Virus record (IMG/VR): IMGVR_UViG_2778261454_000003
Source: a virus
Lineage: Duplodnaviria; Heunggongvirae; Uroviricota; Caudoviricetes
Reading direction: 5' to 3' (one strand)
Length of the DNA stretch: 4,413 nucleotides
Shown piece after piece: positions 1 through 4,413 of this stretch. The notes beneath the pieces were generated by a model, which saw only the letters and a program-made list of their open reading frames with translations, did not search any database and had not been told where the DNA came from. How positions within the stretch are numbered: position 1 is the stretch's first letter; each line of letters starts with the position of its first letter. The translations under genes and the position numbers were made by a program.

Positions 1-40
1 CGCTTACCGCTCATGGGCACCTCTCTTTAAGCCATCTTAA

Positions 41-400
41 ATGACTCTGAGGTGTCTGTTAAACCCGTGGCGATTCAGTATGAGCATTATCAGTACTGCT
101 AAAGGTGCTGCAAATGGACAATTCCACGGCGGCATAGATGAGCTACCAGCAGGGTATGATAACAAATCATTCGTACTTAAAGCTGGTGAACGTGTAGTAC
201 AACCTGAAGCTAACAAGAAACTAACAGCATTTCTTGATAAACATGAAGGGGGTAGTAGTTCTGGTGATGTGACCATTAACGCACCTTTGATCATTCAAGG
301 TGATGTAGCTGGTGATGATAAGAAATTCAATGAAATGTTGAAGAAACATCAAAACAGTGTAGCACAGGCTTACAGAAGCTCTATTAAGCGTAATTCATAA
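41..400 (+). CDS. Lambda-type tail tape measure protein, C-terminal domain-like ORF (possible orphaned fragment; start uncertain, ATG 41 or ATG 80)
   Basis: Open frame from ATG 41 to TAA 398-400, followed at once by a hairpin terminator. The translation (Gly-rich stretch, then ELPAGYDNKSFVLKAGERVV ... DVTINAPLIIQGDV ... FNEMLKKHQNSVAQAY) resembles in pattern my recollection of the lambda gpH C-terminus (unverified, no search run). Position just upstream of gpM-like/gpL-like genes matches lambda H-M-L order. Hand-counted GC about 43% on one 60-nt stretch. No clear Shine-Dalgarno before either candidate ATG, and an in-frame TAA at 38-40 closes the frame upstream. Confidence 0.55.
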   Translation: MTLRCLLNPWRFSMSIISTAKGAANGQFHGGIDELPAGYDNKSFVLKAGERVVQPEANKKLTAFLDKHEGGSSSGDVTINAPLIIQGDVAGDDKKFNEMLKKHQNSVAQAYRSSIKRNS

Positions 401-428
401 GAAAGCCCGATTAGGGCTTTCTGTTTCT
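400..428. terminator. Bidirectional intrinsic (rho-independent) terminator hairpin between convergent genes
   Basis: Perfect inverted repeat GAAAGCCC (401-408) / GGGCTTTC (414-421) with 5-nt loop GATTA (409-413), extendable by an A400:T422 pair. On the + strand it is followed by the T-rich tract TGTTTCT (422-428). On the - strand it is followed by TTATGAATTA (complement of 391-400). It sits directly after the + ORF stop at 398-400 and overlaps the stop codon of the - strand ORF (411-413). Confidence 0.6.
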
Positions 429-1037
429 CATATATTCCTTTTTTATTTTATATACAACCTTACGCATTCTATTTGCTTTTATCTTTCTAAGTAATTCACT
501 GAAACTAAAAATTGTGCTAATCGCAATGAGGAAAGTGTACACAAAAAGATTAATTAGCTTTCCGCTTTCAAAGTCCCAGAAAGGTTTGAATATGAAAACC
601 CCAACAAATAGCGGAAGTAAAAAACATCCAATCAATGAACTAACTACAGCAACACTAAGAATGTCTCCTTTTGAACTTTTTTTGATTTTACCATTCTTTG
701 GATTGTAAGCATCTCGTAATCCTTTATAAATTTTCAGTTCTAAGTTGAATTTCTCCAACTGAGAATAAAAATTCTCAATTTGTTTAATAGTTGTAAATTT
801 TAAATTCGTTTTGAAGTTGAATTTTGCTATGTCATGTTCAGCTTGCTCTATTTTAGCTAATTTTTCATTGAAATATTGCTTTTCGCCAATGAATATGCCC
901 CATATTTTATTAGCGACTATAGCCATGCTTCCACTACGATAGACAATATAAAGTGTGACCACGACAATCATCACATTAAGTAGTATTGCGGTTATTGCTG
1001 GAAATGACTTTATAAAAAGCTCAAAAGAATCTTTCAT
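411..1037 (-). CDS. Hypothetical integral membrane protein (208 aa, predicted 3 TM helices, basic C-terminal tail); moron-like antisense gene, candidate superinfection-exclusion/defence protein
   Basis: A 627-nt open frame in very AT-rich DNA (hand-counted about 25-33% GC on three 60-nt stretches), where stop codons are frequent by chance, so coding is likely. Hydrophobic segments at residues 12-33 (FPAITAILLNVMIVVVTLYIVY, nt 939-1004), 126-150 (ILSVAVVSSLIGCFLLPLFVGVFIF, nt 588-662) and 162-179 (LINLFVYTFLIAISTIFSF, nt 501-554). A charged, heptad-like region lies between them (residues 52-110). The C-terminal tail (residues 184-207, nt 417-488) carries about 12 Lys/Arg in 24 residues. Opposite orientation and lower GC than the flanking tail genes. 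No recognisable Shine-Dalgarno before ATG 1035-1037. No family recognised. Confidence 0.7.
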   Translation of the reverse strand: MKDSFELFIKSFPAITAILLNVMIVVVTLYIVYRSGSMAIVANKIWGIFIGEKQYFNEKLAKIEQAEHDIAKFNFKTNLKFTTIKQIENFYSQLEKFNLELKIYKGLRDAYNPKNGKIKKSSKGDILSVAVVSSLIGCFLLPLFVGVFIFKPFWDFESGKLINLFVYTFLIAISTIFSFSELLRKIKANRMRKVVYKIKKEYMRNRKP

Positions 1038-1069: not shown

Positions 1070-1098
1070 ATTATGGCATCTTTTTCAAATAATGTGAA
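1070..1098 (-). promoter_or_regulatory. Candidate sigma70-type promoter for the minus-strand membrane-protein gene
   Basis: Read on the - strand: -35 TTCACA (complement of 1093-1098), a 17-nt spacer, then -10 CATAAT (complement of 1070-1075) preceded by TG one base upstream (TGcCATAAT, extended -10-like). The predicted transcript start near 1062 gives a leader of about 25 nt before ATG 1037. Sequence pattern only; the -10 overlaps the start codon of the divergent gpM-like gene. Confidence 0.25.
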
Positions 1099-1630
1099 GG
1101 TTACAAACTTTCAAATTAAAAGTACTGAACCAATTTACTCTAATCAAACATGGTCAGGGCAACGTATCATGAGATCAACGGGTATTCAGTTCTACAATAT
1201 TCAGTTCACACTCAATTTCAATCCTTCAGCACTAACTGAAGTTAATAGCTTTTTAGCTCAGTACGCACAAGGTAAACCATTTACTTTCTCACTTGGTGTA
1301 GCTGGTATATATCATGGTACACAAACTGGCTCAGTTACCAGTACTGGATTAATTCAACCTGGAAATATGATTATCCCAACAAGTAGCAATACATTAGCTG
1401 TTGGTGAATGGATTCAATTCACTAATCATAACAAGCTATATCGAATTGTAGAGCGTGCTGGAACAAGTATTACTATCTTTCCCGCACTACAGAATACAGT
1501 ACAGGCAAGTGAAGTAATCAAATATAACAACCTCATGATAGAGGCGGTATTAGATCCTGATAATGATTACACAATGCCAGTAGGTAACATTATGAACATC
1601 ACACTAAAGGCTACAGAGAACATACAATAA
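1073..1630 (+). CDS. Minor tail protein, lambda gpM-like (185 aa, with a C-terminal extension relative to lambda gpM)
   Basis: ATG 1073 with a Shine-Dalgarno just upstream; stop TAA 1628-1630 overlaps the next start (TAATG). The N-terminal ~80 residues (WSGQRIMRSTGIQFYNIQFTLNFNPSALTEVNSFLAQYAQGKPFTF) resemble in pattern the remembered lambda gpM core (YSQR ... KTYSVTLSVPREEATVLESFLEEHGGWKSFLW). Synteny: lies between the tape-measure-like ORF and gpL/J-like genes. Hand-counted GC about 40%. Confidence 0.8.
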   Translation: MASFSNNVKVTNFQIKSTEPIYSNQTWSGQRIMRSTGIQFYNIQFTLNFNPSALTEVNSFLAQYAQGKPFTFSLGVAGIYHGTQTGSVTSTGLIQPGNMIIPTSSNTLAVGEWIQFTNHNKLYRIVERAGTSITIFPALQNTVQASEVIKYNNLMIEAVLDPDNDYTMPVGNIMNITLKATENIQ

Positions 1631-2253
1631 TGAATGCTAGTACATACACAAATGCTAATCTTCTCAAGTACTGGAAATTAGTTAGAGGAACTACCAAAAC
1701 ACAACTAAGCCTAATGGATATTATGAGTTTAGGCGTTTTCGTAACGTGTTTTGATGTACTACCAAAAGGTACAAATGGTTTTCACTGGACTGATTCACTA
1801 ATTGATATTCCTCTTGATGGTTATCAATATACAAGTTTTCCCGATATTATCAGTGGTTTACTACCTTCATACTCTGAACAAAAGGGTATTACGAATGATG
1901 CTATTAACTTCAAGATAAGTAATGTAAATGCTTCAGTACGTGCTCTTGCTTTGGGCGGGTTCCTTAAAGATGCTCAGATGAATATCAAGTTAGTTATCTT
2001 GAATCCATATGATAGTACTGTAATTGATTCAATGCTTATGTTTACTGGATTCATTGATTACATTCAAGCCGTAGCAGATCCAAATGCTAAAACCAATGAA
2101 ATGACTGTATATGTCAATTCTGTATATAAGAAACTTGATCGTCAACCAGCTCTAATAGCTGCTAATTCAGTATATCAATCTTATTACAAGGGTGATGAAT
2201 ACTTTTCATTACTTGGTCAGGTTAACCAAAATCAAAATTGGAAATACAAATAA
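1630..2253 (+). CDS. Putative minor tail protein, lambda gpL-like by position (207 aa)
   Basis: ATG 1630 overlaps the upstream stop (TAATG), indicating translational coupling; stop TAA 2251-2253. Assignment rests mainly on gene order (after gpM-like, before the small tail protein and J-like gene) and size. Sequence resemblance to lambda gpL is weak and from memory; the C-terminal Cys cluster of lambda gpL is not evident. Confidence 0.7.
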   Translation: MNASTYTNANLLKYWKLVRGTTKTQLSLMDIMSLGVFVTCFDVLPKGTNGFHWTDSLIDIPLDGYQYTSFPDIISGLLPSYSEQKGITNDAINFKISNVNASVRALALGGFLKDAQMNIKLVILNPYDSTVIDSMLMFTGFIDYIQAVADPNAKTNEMTVYVNSVYKKLDRQPALIAANSVYQSYYKGDEYFSLLGQVNQNQNWKYK

Positions 2254-2657
2254 TGAAAAATCTACATAACGAAATTATGAATATCATTCAAACAGCAATT
2301 GATAGCCCTTATCAGTTCGGAACTAATGATTGTAACATTATAGTACTCCGATTAATTGACTTAATTAACGGTACTACAACCCTATCAGATCGCCAATATA
2401 CGAGCGTTAAAGAGGGTATAGCGGGTTTAAACAAGGAAGGATGGAACCACACAGGGGAAATAGTTGAAGCCTATTGTAAGCCCGTACAACACGTTATAGA
2501 TGGTGATATCTGGCTAGATCCTGATAACCCTCTAATCATGGCAGTAGTCGTATCAGGTCGTGTACTTGGTGTTACTGCTAATCATGACGGTTTTGAACTT
2601 CAACCGAAGCCAACAAAAGGAACATATTATAGAGTAAGGAAACATATAGATGGGTAA
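2253..2657 (+). CDS. Small tail-tip protein (134 aa from ATG 2253; 139 aa if ATG 2238), possible papain-fold (NlpC/P60-like) peptidase, gpK-like by position
   Basis: ATG 2253 overlaps the upstream stop TAA 2251-2253 (same TAATG coupling as at 1630); the alternative ATG 2238 would overlap the upstream gene by 16 nt. Stop TAA 2655-2657. Contains a Cys in a G-x-x-D-C context (YQFGTNDCNIIV) and downstream His residues (WNHTGEIVEAY, QHVIDGD, ANHDGFEL), as expected for NlpC/P60 Cys-His catalytic residues. Motif-level evidence only; no JAB/MPN-like domain is apparent. Confidence 0.7.
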   Translation: MKNLHNEIMNIIQTAIDSPYQFGTNDCNIIVLRLIDLINGTTTLSDRQYTSVKEGIAGLNKEGWNHTGEIVEAYCKPVQHVIDGDIWLDPDNPLIMAVVVSGRVLGVTANHDGFELQPKPTKGTYYRVRKHIDG

Positions 2658-4308
2658 GAGTTTAGGCGGCTTTTTTGGAGCCATTATAACAGCGGTCGTA
2701 GTTGCTGCTGCGGTCTACTTTTCAGGAGGAACGGCATTAGCTGCGGTTGGTTGGGGTGCTGCGGCAGGGGCAGTAAGTTTAGTTGCTACATCTATGCTAG
2801 CTCAAGTAGGGGTAACGGGTTATGGGGATGTATCGGATAGTATAAGTAGGTCAGTTTCCCCAACTACCGGATTGCCAGTACTGTTTGGTGGCGATCTTCC
2901 TCATAAGAATGGTACTTCAGGCGGTTCATTTGTTCTAACTGGTAGTATTGTTAGTTGGTACAACGTACCTGATTCAGATTCACAGTACCTATTTTCTGAA
3001 CAAGCAGTAGCGTATGCGGGTACTGAAAAACATATTGAACAAATTTACATTGATAATGAAGCAGTACTATCAGCCCCAATTACGCAAGATGGAATAGTAC
3101 CGAAAACATCTATTTCTGGTAAATATGCCGATGTACTCCAATTGGAAGTACGTTTTGGTGGTGATTATACAAGTACTAAATCCCTAGCAACTCAATACGC
3201 TGGACCGAAATGGACTAATAAATTTCTTGGTAAAGGTGTTGTTAGTATCAGTACTGTTATCAAGAAAACTCAAAAATCACTTGAAAATAACATTCTCGTA
3301 AATGACCAATTCGCACTAACTGTAGAAATGAAAGGTCAACGTATCTTTGATTTTGTAGATGGTACTATTAAAGCTAGTAGTAATCCACCTTCGATTATAT
3401 ACGATTACTTAACCAATACTGTGTATGGTATGAGTATTGATCCTAGTCTTATCAATCAAGATACATTCGCAGAAACTGCGGCATATTGTGATGCTTTTGA
3501 AATGTACGCCAACGGGGCAATTAGTTATCAAAGTACATTTATGGATAACATTGAAAATATTTGTCAGAGTTTTGGCGGTATCATGTATGTACACGCGGGG
3601 CAGATATGCCTAACTACAGACCGTAAAACTGTATCTGTAGCGTCATTTAATGAGCGTAATATGGTTGGTGGTATACAGGTTAGTACTTCAGGTGTATCAG
3701 ATTATTTCAACGCCGTAGATTGTAAATTCAAAAACCCTCAATCAATCTACACAACGGATGTAGTACGTATTCCTTCAGATATTACCATTGATGAAGCAAT
3801 CCAACATGACGGGCAAGTTATAGCATTATCACGTGATTATACTTGGAGTTATGATCAAGAAGTCATAGCTAAAATGGCAAACATAGATGTACTAAAAGCA
3901 AAATATGCCCTACGTACTATCAGCTTTACTACAAGTGAAGGATGGGATTTAAAAGTATGGGATGCTATTGATGTTAGTAATGATGAACTTGCTATTTCAG
4001 GTAAATTTAAAGTACTGAATAAAGATGTTAGTACTGATCAAGAGAATATTGGCTACGTTACTATCACTGCGGTGGAGGCACCAGATCAGATGTATGATGG
4101 CGTTGATCCGGGTGTATGGTCGCCGGGTGGTGTGATTAGCTTCCCTCAGCTATCAGTACTTCCACCATCTAACCTACAGGCTGTTAAGAAAGGTAATACT
4201 ACTGCTGGTTCGGTTATTGATCTAACGTGGGATGCTTCACCAGATCCATACCTACGCGGTTATTATGTGTACTATAAACTTAATAGTTCTTTGATCCTAC
4301 CCACGTAA
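2650..4308 (+). CDS. Tail tip / host-specificity protein, lambda gpJ-like N-terminal region fused to a gpI-like Gly/Ala-rich hydrophobic N-terminal segment; ends prematurely within an FN3-like domain (552 aa)
   Basis: ATG 2650 with AAGGA (2636-2640) 9 nt upstream; overlaps the upstream stop (ATGGGTAA). Residues 1-90 (GGFFGAIITAVVVAAAVYFSGGTALAAVGWGAAAGAVSLVATSMLAQVGV ... GLPVLFGG) resemble the hydrophobic Gly/Ala-rich segment I recall in lambda tail assembly protein I. Residues about 240-330 (IIYDYLTNTVYGMSIDPS ... AAYCDAF ... ICQSFGGIMYVHAGQICLTTDR) resemble the remembered conserved J-family tail-tip domain (lambda J: WCLWDMLTHPRYGMG ... QYCDQ ... TLTFVQDR). Near the C-terminus YVTITAVEAP is followed by PPSNLQAVKKGNTTAGSVIDLTWDASPDPYLRGYYVYYK, an FN3-like beginning. 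Stop TAA 4306-4308. Lambda J is over 1100 aa, so this ORF looks truncated. Confidence 0.85.
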   Translation: MGKSLGGFFGAIITAVVVAAAVYFSGGTALAAVGWGAAAGAVSLVATSMLAQVGVTGYGDVSDSISRSVSPTTGLPVLFGGDLPHKNGTSGGSFVLTGSIVSWYNVPDSDSQYLFSEQAVAYAGTEKHIEQIYIDNEAVLSAPITQDGIVPKTSISGKYADVLQLEVRFGGDYTSTKSLATQYAGPKWTNKFLGKGVVSISTVIKKTQKSLENNILVNDQFALTVEMKGQRIFDFVDGTIKASSNPPSIIYDYLTNTVYGMSIDPSLINQDTFAETAAYCDAFEMYANGAISYQSTFMDNIENICQSFGGIMYVHAGQICLTTDRKTVSVASFNERNMVGGIQVSTSGVSDYFNAVDCKFKNPQSIYTTDVVRIPSDITIDEAIQHDGQVIALSRDYTWSYDQEVIAKMANIDVLKAKYALRTISFTTSEGWDLKVWDAIDVSNDELAISGKFKVLNKDVSTDQENIGYVTITAVEAPDQMYDGVDPGVWSPGGVISFPQLSVLPPSNLQAVKKGNTTAGSVIDLTWDASPDPYLRGYYVYYKLNSSLILPT

Positions 4309-4309
4309 T

Positions 4310-4413
4310 ATGGACACAGGCCTAAGCGAGGTTCTTGTTTTCAAATTGTTCCGGACTGAGGCCGCCACACCAACTGTGCCGCCGCCACCGATTGTAATCA
4401 CATTCGATATAAT
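4310..4413 (+). CDS. Possible start of a downstream ORF, or a frame-shifted continuation of the J-like gene (partial, runs off the window end)
   Basis: ATG at 4310-4312, one nt after the J-like stop. The +1 frame is open from 4295 to the window end (SYPRNMDTGLSEVLVFKLFRTEAATPTVPPPPIVITFDI...), including a Pro-rich linker-like motif. No Shine-Dalgarno. Hand-counted GC about 50% over 4309-4413. A minus-strand frame is also open across 4300-4413, so coding strand and reality are unresolved. Confidence 0.2.
   Translation, partial: MDTGLSEVLVFKLFRTEAATPTVPPPPIVITFDI

What the first reader, a model, noticed from the sequence alone, without database searches (positions are those of the whole stretch)
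2650..2920. gpI-like Gly/Ala-rich hydrophobic segment fused to the N-terminus of the J-like protein
The first about 90 residues of the 552-aa protein are a Gly/Ala-rich hydrophobic stretch ending in GLPVLFGG. This resembles the C-terminal part of lambda tail assembly protein I as I remember it, yet here it is in the same polypeptide as the J-like domain and no separate gpI-like gene is present. If real, this is a gene-fusion variant of the lambda K-I-J arrangement, and the hydrophobic segment may act in tip assembly or membrane interaction during injection.
Basis: partly seen in the sequence, partly recalled or inferred. Interest (0 to 1): 0.4.

Follow-up and report, generated by a model that had tools for sequence, protein, structure and literature searches.

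The report
gpI-like plug segment on J-like protein
The first ~100 residues of this phage tail-tip (J-like) protein really are the counterpart of the C-terminal half of lambda tail protein I, joined to the hub protein in one chain. This joined layout is common and was already described, and the gene here is a prophage remnant cut by an insertion sequence.

Summary
Residues 1-56 of the ORF at 2650 are 43% Gly+Ala with a single charged residue. A Ser/Thr-rich linker follows (57-73), then the strand motif GLPVLFGG (74-81). Profiles built only from fused N-termini find lambda gpI as the best hit in the whole PDB, aligned to gpI residues ~96-208. An hhalign comparison gives 96.6% probability, with a score of 61.8 against 11-13 for shuffled controls. 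A virtual lambda gpI(96-223)+J chain aligns collinearly with the window protein.

Only the C-terminal half of gpI is present. The ubiquitin-like N-domain (Pfam Lambda_tail_I) is absent, and the upstream K-like gene (DUF6950) lacks the JAB domain.

The layout is not rare. In 78 of 80 related viral contigs, and in 52 of 58 long proteins from a 1.84-billion-protein library, the segment sits at the N-terminus of the J-like protein. Iyer et al. (2006) already reported gpI-J fusions next to JAB-less NlpC genes. The RcGTA and R4C "megatron" proteins carry an analogous N-terminal iris/penetration domain.

The likely role is to plug the tail-tip channel and then insert into the outer membrane. That role is inferred from lambda, not shown here. 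In this window the gene is truncated by IS3 at codon 547. This is a new member of a known kind, of low interest.

The parts
2650..2817 (+). Residues 1-56: two hydrophobic Gly/Ala/Val-rich segments (about 4-27 and 29-55), counterpart of gpI helices H1/H2
   Evidence: Composition and hydropathy. Aligned to gpI 96-~150 by hhalign and HMMER profiles. AF2 monomer pLDDT <50.
2818..2868 (+). Residues 57-73: polar Ser/Thr/Gly/Asp-rich linker, in the position of the gpI 'plug' and linker (gpI ~156-187)
   Evidence: Composition. Alignment columns. Function inferred from PMC11101478.
2869..2892 (+). Residues 74-81, GLPVLFGG: conserved beta-strand motif equal to gpI 188-VLPVLYGE-195 and T5 pb3 264-IPVVYG
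   Evidence: G80 invariant and Y/F79 nearly invariant. BLASTP of the phage DCP80 motif against gpI gives E 2e-5. pb3 match. AF2 strand 77-79.
2893..2958 (+). Residues 82-103: clade-specific ~9-residue insertion (DLPHKNGTSGG) plus a second strand, SFVLTGSIVSW
   Evidence: Alignment A1 shows the insertion only in the enterobacterial clade. AF2 strand 95-102.
2959..4291 (+). Residues 104-547: J / pb3 / megatron-type hub body and the start of an FN3 domain, cut short at 4291
   Evidence: phrog_31 'central tail fiber J' 1.2e-40. Foldseek: T5 pb3 3.5e-20, lambda gpJ 6.5e-18, T1, Chi, JBD30, RcGTA 6tba_8A 3.9e-11. Profile against the PDB.
4292..4413 (.). End of an IS3 element that truncates the J-like gene. 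Codons 548-552 and the stop codon are IS3 sequence.
   Evidence: 100% identical to IS3 ends in thousands of E. coli genomes. Sequence read.
2238..2657 (+). K-position gene: 139-aa DUF6950 protein with a conserved G-x-DC motif and no JAB domain. Its stop overlaps the J-like start.
   Evidence: Pfam DUF6950 1.1e-9. A relative in phage PMBT28 also hits NlpC/P60 weakly, E 0.0033. hhalign against lambda K is inconclusive.
1630..2253 (+). L-position gene: 207-aa hub-type tail protein
   Evidence: phrog_2048 7.2e-24. Syntenic genes in phages DCP80 and henriette hit PF09931, the baseplate hub N-terminal attachment domain. PGAP names relatives DUF2163.
1073..1630 (+). Distal tail protein (lambda gpM position)
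   Evidence: phrog_1302 'distal tail protein' 3.5e-16.
41..400 (+). C-terminal remnant of the tape measure protein
   Evidence: phrog_21688 and phrog_13674 (tape measure C-terminus). The upstream part is replaced by an IS3-family end.

Best explanation
Residues ~1-100 of the J-like protein are the homologue of the C-terminal half of lambda tail-tip protein gpI (the 'TAPI-C' part: two hydrophobic helices, a plug/linker and the LPVLYGE strand). Here that part is made as the N-terminus of the hub/central-fibre protein instead of as a separate polypeptide.

The gene sits in a four-gene tail-tip module: distal tail protein, hub, small NlpC/P60-like DUF6950 protein, and a large J/megatron-type protein. 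This is the same order as in RcGTA and roseophage R4C.

By analogy with the lambda structures (inferred, not shown here), three copies of the segment would lie inside the tip cone. The conserved strand (residues 74-81) would be zipped onto the J body. The linker and helices would close the channel under the C-terminus of the tape measure protein. After receptor binding the cone would open, and the freed hydrophobic helices would drop towards the outer membrane and probably insert into it.

This version lacks both the ubiquitin-like N-domain of gpI and the JAB domain of gpK. Its first residues align with the boundary between the ubiquitin-like domain and TAPI-C in gpI.

In this particular window the gene is not functional. 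IS3 cuts it at codon 547, and the whole 4.2-kb tail fragment lies between two IS3-family ends.
For: Homology (shown):
- hhalign probability 96.6%, E 5.9e-10, window 3-82 to gpI 97-196. Controls score 11-13, maximum 20.8, against 61.8.
- Window alone against gpI 96-223: Smith-Waterman z = 4.6, with 2 of 1000 shuffles reaching the score. Against Ubl-containing I-J fusions: z = 8.3, 0 of 1000.
- PDB-wide profile searches return gpI-type chains as the top hits: 8iyk_I E 0.0025 and 1.9e-5, plus Ur-lambda gpI, 25vf_9 and T1 9l9p_A.
- The same strand is found in T5 pb3 at 260-304, just after the plug-hairpin tip (residues 233-236) described in the T5 study (bioRxiv 10.1101/2022.09.20.507954).
- One 495-residue profile hits both the I and J chains of lambda and T1.
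- A virtual gpI(96-223)+J chain gives a single collinear alignment, score 108 against 79 for J alone.

Bridging forms:
- Proteins P0180, P0211, P0212 and P0236 (1155-2050 aa) carry a ubiquitin-like domain, then TAPI-C, then J. They align to gpI 58-214 at 98.1% probability.
- P0190 is an NlpC/P60 + I + J triple fusion.

The layout is general:
- 78 of 80 IMG/VR loci have the segment in the J ORF, and none has a ubiquitin-like domain nearby.
- 52 of 58 long library hits carry it at the N-terminus.
- The same synteny is seen in phages DCP80, henriette 12B8, PMBT28, Vibrio phage 1244, HTVC202P and R4C.

Function (from the literature): gpI residues 101-223 form helices H1/H2, a plug and beta-strands that augment gpJ. 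The plug opens on LamB binding, and H1/H2 are proposed to enter the outer membrane (PMC11101478, PMC10721106, PMC12617516).
Against: - No structural or experimental data exist for this protein.
- The AF2 monomer model gives residues 1-73 a pLDDT below 50, so neither the helices nor a lumen location is shown.
- A single-sequence BLASTP of the window against gpI is not significant (E 0.2), and Pfam and PHROGs give nothing for residues 1-100. The case rests on profiles and on intermediate sequences.
- The window clade has YGG/FGG plus a 9-residue insertion where gpI and most relatives have YGE-R-G, so details of the strand pairing may differ.
- Membrane insertion by gpI itself is a proposal in the cited papers, not a demonstrated fact.
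Confidence: 0.78

Rival explanations
1. The segment is homologous to the gpI C-half but acts only as an internal plug and assembly element. It holds the tape measure C-terminus, closes the tube and is simply expelled, without ever forming a membrane-inserted structure.
For: In the lambda structures only the plug and strand roles are actually seen. H1/H2 vanish from the open-state map, and membrane insertion is a hypothesis (PMC11101478). In many marine relatives the N-terminal extension is acidic and amphipathic rather than hydrophobic, with a KD19 maximum below 1.6 in 35 of 79 loci. A membrane-spanning role is therefore not universal. The T5 authors state that a pore-lining N-terminal helix 'cannot be a general feature' (bioRxiv 10.1101/2022.09.20.507954).
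Against: The window clade has two uncharged stretches of about 23-27 residues with a KD maximum of 2.18. That is typical of membrane segments and conserved across the clade. gpI has strongly predicted transmembrane helices, and cryo-ET shows intimate contact between tip and outer membrane (PMC12617516).
Confidence: 0.17
2. The N-terminal stretch is a generic signal peptide or membrane anchor, and its likeness to gpI is only shared Gly/Ala-rich composition.
For: BLASTP with composition adjustment is not significant (E 0.2). No Pfam or PHROG family matches residues 1-100. Low-complexity hydrophobic sequences often give spurious matches.
Against: Column shuffles that keep composition, including shuffles confined within the hydrophobic block, drop the hhalign score from 61.8 to 11-13. 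Among 177,635 PDB sequences the only hits at E below 0.1 are gpI-type proteins and T5 pb3, at the right positions. The non-hydrophobic LPV(L/I)YG strand also matches. Fusions that contain the ubiquitin-like domain link the two families. There is no lipobox or AxA cleavage site, and no Cys in residues 1-100 (sequence).
Confidence: 0.03
3. The apparent fusion is an artefact: a wrong start codon, a frameshift or sequencing error joining a small gene to J, or a chimera created by the flanking IS elements.
For: The window is bounded by IS3-family ends and the ORF's 3' end is IS3-derived. One related contig (L019) has the first 65 residues in a different frame from the J body.
Against: The same uninterrupted reading frame occurs in dozens of independent genomes and phages at 20-93% identity. 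A Shine-Dalgarno sequence and a stop/start overlap with the upstream gene are present. The IS3 junction is 1.6 kb downstream of the segment. L019 is a single frameshift in a close relative (about 60% identical to the window protein) whose two frames together read as one continuous fused N-terminus.
Confidence: 0.02

Closest known systems
Lambda gpI (tail tip assembly / 'insertion' protein; TAPI), C-terminal half, residues ~96-223 (PDB 8IYK, 8K35, 8XCG, 9E7M)
   Same: Homologous by profile tests. It has two hydrophobic Gly/Ala-rich helices, a polar linker/plug and the VLPVLYGE strand, in the same order and with similar spacing. It sits directly upstream of the J hub sequence, and the virtual fusion is collinear.
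   Different: gpI is a separate 223-aa protein with a ubiquitin-like N-domain (Pfam PF06805, residues 14-97). Here that domain is absent and the C-half is covalently joined to J. The window clade has FGG/YGG plus a 9-residue insertion instead of YGEMRVG.
TAPI-TAPJ fusions in prophages, described by Iyer, Burroughs and Aravind 2006 (PMC1779556)
   Same: [quoted passage not shown] Here too the K-position gene has no JAB domain. Fusions of this kind that contain the ubiquitin-like domain were recovered here (P0180, P0211, P0212, P0236).
   Different: Those fusions were found through the ubiquitin-like domain. The window protein has only TAPI-C, starting at the boundary between the ubiquitin-like domain and TAPI-C.
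Megatron protein (g15) of RcGTA and of roseophage R4C, with its N-terminal iris/penetration domain (PMC7296036, PMC10276861)
   Same: Same gene order: tape measure, distal tail protein, hub, small peptidase, large hub/fibre protein. Both have a hydrophobic Gly/Ala-rich N-terminus on the large protein. In RcGTA and R4C that segment closes the channel and is proposed to enter the outer membrane. The body folds match (Foldseek 6tba_8A, E 3.9e-11).
   Different: Sequence homology between the N-terminal segments could not be shown (R4C: HMM 2.8 bits, hhalign probability 0.2%). The RcGTA and R4C hub partner binds an Fe-S cluster, whereas the 207-aa hub here has a single Cys. Their iris domain is shorter (about 46 residues).
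T5 baseplate hub protein pb3 (plug within the HDII insertion; PDB 7ZHJ, 7ZQP)
   Same: Best structural match for the body (E 3.5e-20). Profile positions 78-471 align to pb3 264-716. The IPVVYG strand follows the pb3 plug, just as the LPVLFG strand follows the N-terminal segment here. The plug closes the tube and anchors in the outer membrane (bioRxiv 10.1101/2022.09.20.507954).
   Different: pb3 also contains the gpL-equivalent HDI in the same chain. Its plug refolds into a beta-hairpin and is not a pair of hydrophobic helices.

Membership tests
Lambda gpI / TAPI (Pfam Lambda_tail_I, PF06805) | Ubiquitin-like beta-grasp N-terminal domain (the only part the Pfam model covers: gpI 14-97) | tested here: not met
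   No PF06805 hit in any window protein. A ubiquitin-like-domain HMM and a full gpI HMM find no such domain in six-frame ORFs of the window or in 80 related loci. Positive control: lambda gpI gives 1.1e-28.
Lambda gpI / TAPI | TAPI-C: Gly-rich hydrophobic helices, plug/linker and the LPVLYGE strand | tested here: met
   hhalign 96.6% with shuffle controls. gpI is the top PDB hit for profiles that contain no gpI sequence. Pairwise z = 4.6.
Lambda gpI / TAPI | Separate gene between K and J | tested here: not met
   The K-like stop (2655-2657) overlaps the J-like start (2650). It is one continuous ORF and is conserved in relatives.
Lambda gpI / TAPI | Trimer inside the tip lumen, contacting the tape measure C-terminus and augmenting gpJ sheets | not testable with these tools
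   Only a monomer AF2 model was possible, and residues 1-73 have pLDDT below 50.
J / pb3 / megatron-type baseplate hub (HDII-HDIV) | Hub-domain fold and sequence family | tested here: met
   phrog_31 1.2e-40. Foldseek matches T5 pb3, lambda gpJ, T1, Chi, JBD30 and RcGTA. PDB profile hits. Pfam Phage-tail_3 is not reached by the window protein itself, but distant relatives pass it.
J / pb3 / megatron-type baseplate hub | C-terminal FN3 string, fibre and receptor-binding part | tested here: not met
   Truncated by IS3 at 4292. Intact relatives carry fn3 and Phage_Tail_Tip domains.
RcGTA/R4C megatron with iris/penetration domain | Gene order: distal tail protein, hub, small peptidase, large protein with a hydrophobic N-terminus | tested here: met
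   Syntenic genes in phages DCP80 and henriette hit PF09931, and PGAP names the E. coli prophage relatives DUF2163.
RcGTA/R4C megatron with iris/penetration domain | Sequence homology of the N-terminal domain | tested here: inconclusive
   R4C megatron residues 1-140 against the fused-N-terminus profile: 2.8 bits, hhalign probability 0.2%. The aligned positions are collinear but not significant. No RcGTA chain appears in the PDB profile searches.
RcGTA/R4C and lambda gpL-type hub partner | [quoted passage not shown] | tested here: not met
   The 207-aa protein has one Cys (translation).
TAPI-TAPJ fusion operons (Iyer et al. 2006) | gpI fused to J, next to a K homologue with the NlpC/P60 domain only (no JAB) | tested here: met
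   The fusion is shown above. The K-position protein is DUF6950 with no Prok-JAB hit, whereas lambda K has Prok-JAB + NlpC/P60. The link from DUF6950 to NlpC/P60 is only weakly supported (PMBT28 E 0.0033; hhalign against lambda K inconclusive).

The most novel reading that the evidence does not exclude
This lineage is a natural 'minimal' version of the lambda K-I-J system. It has lost, or never had, both the ubiquitin-like domain of gpI and the JAB peptidase of gpK. Its N-terminus (M1-G2-K3-S4) aligns with gpI G96-A97-K98-S99, the boundary where Iyer et al. predicted that JAB cleaves.

If that reading is right, the working form of lambda gpI in the virion is the TAPI-C fragment alone. The ubiquitin-like domain and JAB would then be an optional assembly checkpoint, and covalent linkage to J would simply fix the 3:3 stoichiometry.
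Probability: 0.35. Interest if true: 0.35.

Novelty: new member of a known kind. Interest (0 to 1): 0.18.

Why it matters
It links three descriptions that the papers read here do not equate with one another: the C-terminal half of lambda gpI, the T5 pb3 plug region, and the hydrophobic N-termini of many J/megatron-type proteins. It suggests they are the same plug-and-membrane module placed in different chains.

It also explains why annotation pipelines miss the segment. Pfam's Lambda_tail_I model covers only the ubiquitin-like domain.

For phage biology it adds one small point: the ubiquitin-like domain and the JAB domain are absent together here. It does not open a new question, and the gene in this window is an IS-disrupted remnant.

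Tried and rejected
- Pfam, PHROGs and NCBIfam on residues 1-100 or on the whole protein gave no gpI-related family. This is uninformative, because PF06805 models only gpI 14-97.
- Pairwise BLASTP of the window against gpI gave E 0.2. Only the phage DCP80 relative reached E 2e-5.
- phmmer of the whole protein against the PDB gave only weak pb3 hits.
- A third homologue search with an alignment added few new sequences.
- The AF2 monomer model is not informative for residues 1-73.
- Homology of the N-terminus to the R4C megatron iris domain is not significant.
- For DUF6950 against lambda K, hhalign gave probability 2.1%, and phmmer against the PDB gave nothing relevant.
- Rfam found nothing in the window, and PADLOC found nothing for the DUF6216 protein.
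- Megablast of the window against complete E. coli genomes matched only the IS ends. A distant-mode search was needed to find related prophages.
- A first regex-based extraction of N-terminal segments was faulty and was replaced by HMM coordinates.
- The signal-peptide or lipoprotein reading was rejected: there is no lipobox, no Cys, and a second hydrophobic segment follows the first.
Full report
**What is in the window.** The 4413-bp window holds a tail-tip module on the + strand:
- the C-terminal remnant of a tape measure protein (41-400)
- a distal tail protein (1073-1630, phrog_1302)
- a hub-type tail protein (1630-2253, phrog_2048)
- a 139-aa DUF6950 protein (2238-2657)
- a J-like ORF (2650-4308, phrog_31 'central tail fiber J', 1.2e-40)

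A reverse-strand DUF6216 membrane protein gene (411-1037) sits between the tape measure remnant and the distal tail protein gene. Both ends of the window are insertion-sequence DNA. Bases 4292-4413 are an IS3 end that is 100% identical in thousands of E. coli genomes. Bases 1-~94 are another IS3-family end. The J-like ORF is therefore cut at codon 547, and its last five codons are IS3 sequence. An intact relative in E. coli 14EC007 spans 3204 nt (about 1067 codons) and related viral ORFs are about 1070-1100 aa.

**Checking the observation.** Residues 1-56 are 18% Gly, 25% Ala and 16% Val, with K3 as the only charged residue. The Kyte-Doolittle maximum is 2.18, and G+A is 0.43 against 0.14 in the rest of the protein. 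Residues 57-73 are a polar Ser/Thr/Gly/Asp linker. Residues 74-81 read GLPVLFGG. The start has an AAGGA box, and the ATG overlaps the upstream stop codon. The segment is in frame with the J body in every relative with a complete N-terminus, from 93% down to about 20% identity. The only corrections concern the substructure of the '90 residues' and the artificial length of 552 aa.

**Is it related to gpI?** The easy tests fail. BLASTP of the window against gpI gives E 0.2, and Pfam and PHROGs find nothing. The Pfam miss means little, because Lambda_tail_I covers only gpI residues 14-97, the ubiquitin-like domain. Profile tests are clear:
1. hhalign of 17 fused N-termini against 99 gpI homologues gives probability 96.6% and E 5.9e-10, pairing window 3-82 with gpI 97-196. 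Reversing the gpI columns, or shuffling them (even within the hydrophobic block only), lowers the score from 61.8 to 11-13, with a maximum of 20.8.
2. An HMM of 12 fused N-termini, searched against all 177,635 distinct PDB sequences, returns only two hits: lambda gpI (E 0.0025, residues 96-208) and the T1 tail assembly protein.
3. A broader HMM of 39 diverse fused N-termini gives lambda gpI at 1.9e-5. It also finds Ur-lambda gpI, T5 and DT57C pb3 at 260-304 (IPVVYG...YAFAEGEIDGF), 25vf_9 and T1 9l9p_A.
4. A single 495-residue profile hits both the I chain and the J chain of lambda and of T1, and hits pb3 at 264-716.
5. A virtual chain of gpI(96-223)+J(1-800) aligns collinearly with the window family over positions 2-447. 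The score is 108, against 79 for J alone.
6. The window sequence alone against gpI 96-223 gives z = 4.6, with 2 of 1000 shuffles reaching the score.

**Bridging proteins.** Searching 1.84 billion representative proteins with the 12-sequence profile gave 97 hits. Four long proteins (P0180, P0211, P0212, P0236) have a beta-grasp-like domain in front of the same hydrophobic segment, followed by a J body. They align to gpI 58-214 at 98.1% probability. The window segment matches them with z = 8.3. P0190 is an NlpC/P60 + I + J triple fusion. So separate I, whole I fused to J, and the I C-half fused to J all exist.

**How common is the joined layout?** Of the other 96 library hits, 52 of the 58 long proteins (450 aa or more) carry the segment at the N-terminus. 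All 38 short ones carry it at the N-terminus and look like contig-truncated fragments. None is a lambda-type stand-alone gpI at that threshold. Among 80 related IMG/VR loci, 78 have the segment in the same ORF as the J body. One is cut by the contig end and one (L019) has a single frameshift. No ubiquitin-like domain occurs within 4 kb in any of them. Phages DCP80, henriette 12B8, PMBT28, Vibrio phage 1244 and R4C show the same tape measure, distal tail protein, hub, small protein, large protein order. Pelagibacter phage HTVC202P has the same fused large protein but no DUF6950-sized gene in front of it. The N-terminal extension varies. In many marine contigs it is acidic and amphipathic rather than G/A-hydrophobic.

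**The partner genes.** Lambda K has Prok-JAB + NlpC/P60. The window's K-position protein is DUF6950 only. A DUF6950 member in phage PMBT28 also touches NlpC/P60 (E 0.0033), but hhalign against lambda K is inconclusive. Syntenic genes in DCP80 and henriette hit PF09931, the RcGTA g13-type attachment domain, and PGAP calls them DUF2163 in E. coli prophages. The 207-aa hub protein here has one Cys, so it has no Fe-S cluster.

**Structure.** The AF2 model (23-sequence alignment, mean pLDDT 68, pTM 0.69) is confident for the body and below 50 for residues 1-73. Strands are predicted at 77-79 and 95-102. Foldseek places the body with T5 pb3 (3.5e-20), lambda gpJ, JBD30, Chi, T1, Sf11 and the RcGTA megatron (3.9e-11).

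**Mechanism.** In lambda, gpI residues 101-223 form two hydrophobic helices (H1, H2), a plug (159-175) and beta-strands that augment gpJ sheets. The trimer sits in the tip lumen under the tape measure C-terminus. On LamB binding the plug opens, and H1/H2 are proposed to enter the outer membrane (PMC11101478, PMC10721106, PMC12617516). The T5 pb3 plug does the same job from within the hub chain (bioRxiv 10.1101/2022.09.20.507954). The megatron N-terminal 'iris/penetration domain' of RcGTA and R4C closes the channel and is proposed to form an outer-membrane pore (PMC7296036, PMC10276861). I infer that the window segment works in the same way. The homology is shown here. The location and the membrane step are inferred.

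**Comparison with what is known.** Iyer, Burroughs and Aravind (2006, PMC1779556) defined TAPI as a ubiquitin-like domain, a Gly-rich linker and TAPI-C. [quoted passage not shown] They also proposed that JAB cleaves after the C-terminal Gly of the ubiquitin-like domain. The window protein fits that picture but lacks the ubiquitin-like domain altogether. Its first residues align with the boundary between that domain and TAPI-C. Homology of its N-terminus to the R4C megatron iris domain could not be shown, although composition, position and synteny agree.

**Verdict.** The feature is an ordinary, already described arrangement: a new member of a known kind. Here it lies in a prophage fragment broken by IS3 elements. 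The only mildly new angle is that the ubiquitin-like domain and JAB are absent together, and that the protein's N-terminus coincides with the predicted JAB cleavage site.

Noticed in passing
window 4292-4413: The inverted-repeat end of IS3 (TGATCCTACCCACGTAATATGGACACAGG...) interrupts the J-like gene after codon 547. The ORF's last five codons (LILPT) and its stop codon are IS3 sequence.
   Followed up: yes
window 1-~94: The end of a second IS3-family element replaces all but the last ~105 codons of the tape measure gene. The ATG at 41 lies inside IS-derived sequence. The window is thus a 4.2-kb tail fragment bracketed by IS elements, either a prophage remnant or a contig bounded by repeats.
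   Followed up: partly
window 411-1037 (- strand): An AT-rich (about 30% GC) gene for a 208-aa DUF6216 membrane protein is inserted, in reverse orientation, between the tape measure and distal tail protein genes. In relatives this junction is either tight (L012, L013, L015, L019), holds other DNA (L009, L011, L014), or holds a DUF6216 homologue (L010, L016). It looks like a moron insertion hot-spot. There is no PADLOC hit and the function is unknown.
   Followed up: partly
window 2238-2657: The DUF6950 protein has a conserved G-x-DC motif (N31-D32-C33) shared with relatives. It lines up with the catalytic GVTDC of the lambda gpK NlpC/P60 domain, but the profile comparison is not significant. 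A PMBT28 member hits NlpC/P60 at E 0.0033. It may be a divergent papain-like peptidase equivalent to RcGTA g14.
   Followed up: partly
window 1630-2253: The hub-type (gpL / GTA g13 position) protein has a single cysteine, so it cannot hold the four-Cys Fe-S cluster found in lambda gpL and in the RcGTA and R4C hubs.
   Followed up: no
window 2893-2925 (residues 82-92): The enterobacterial clade has a ~9-residue insertion (DLPHKNGTSGG) after the conserved YG, and Gly in place of the Glu/Arg of the usual YGE-R-G motif.
   Followed up: no
proteins P0180, P0211, P0212, P0236, P0190 (one search hits): Natural whole-gpI-J fusions (ubiquitin-like domain + TAPI-C + J, 1155-2050 aa) and one NlpC/P60 + gpI + J triple fusion (553 aa, possibly truncated) exist in public metagenomes.
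   Followed up: partly
loci L022, L041, L055, L075, L088 and others (IMG/VR): Many marine relatives carry a different N-terminal extension before the conserved YG strand. It is strongly acidic and amphipathic (for example MGWLSDFIRNPIQGTKDLVTDTLDLVEDVIDATVDLVGDVISWFVDIPELPD) rather than Gly/Ala-hydrophobic.
   Followed up: no
locus L019 4001-4207 / 4183-7578: In one close relative the first 65 residues are in a different frame from the J body. This is probably a sequencing or assembly frameshift rather than a true split gene.
   Followed up: partly
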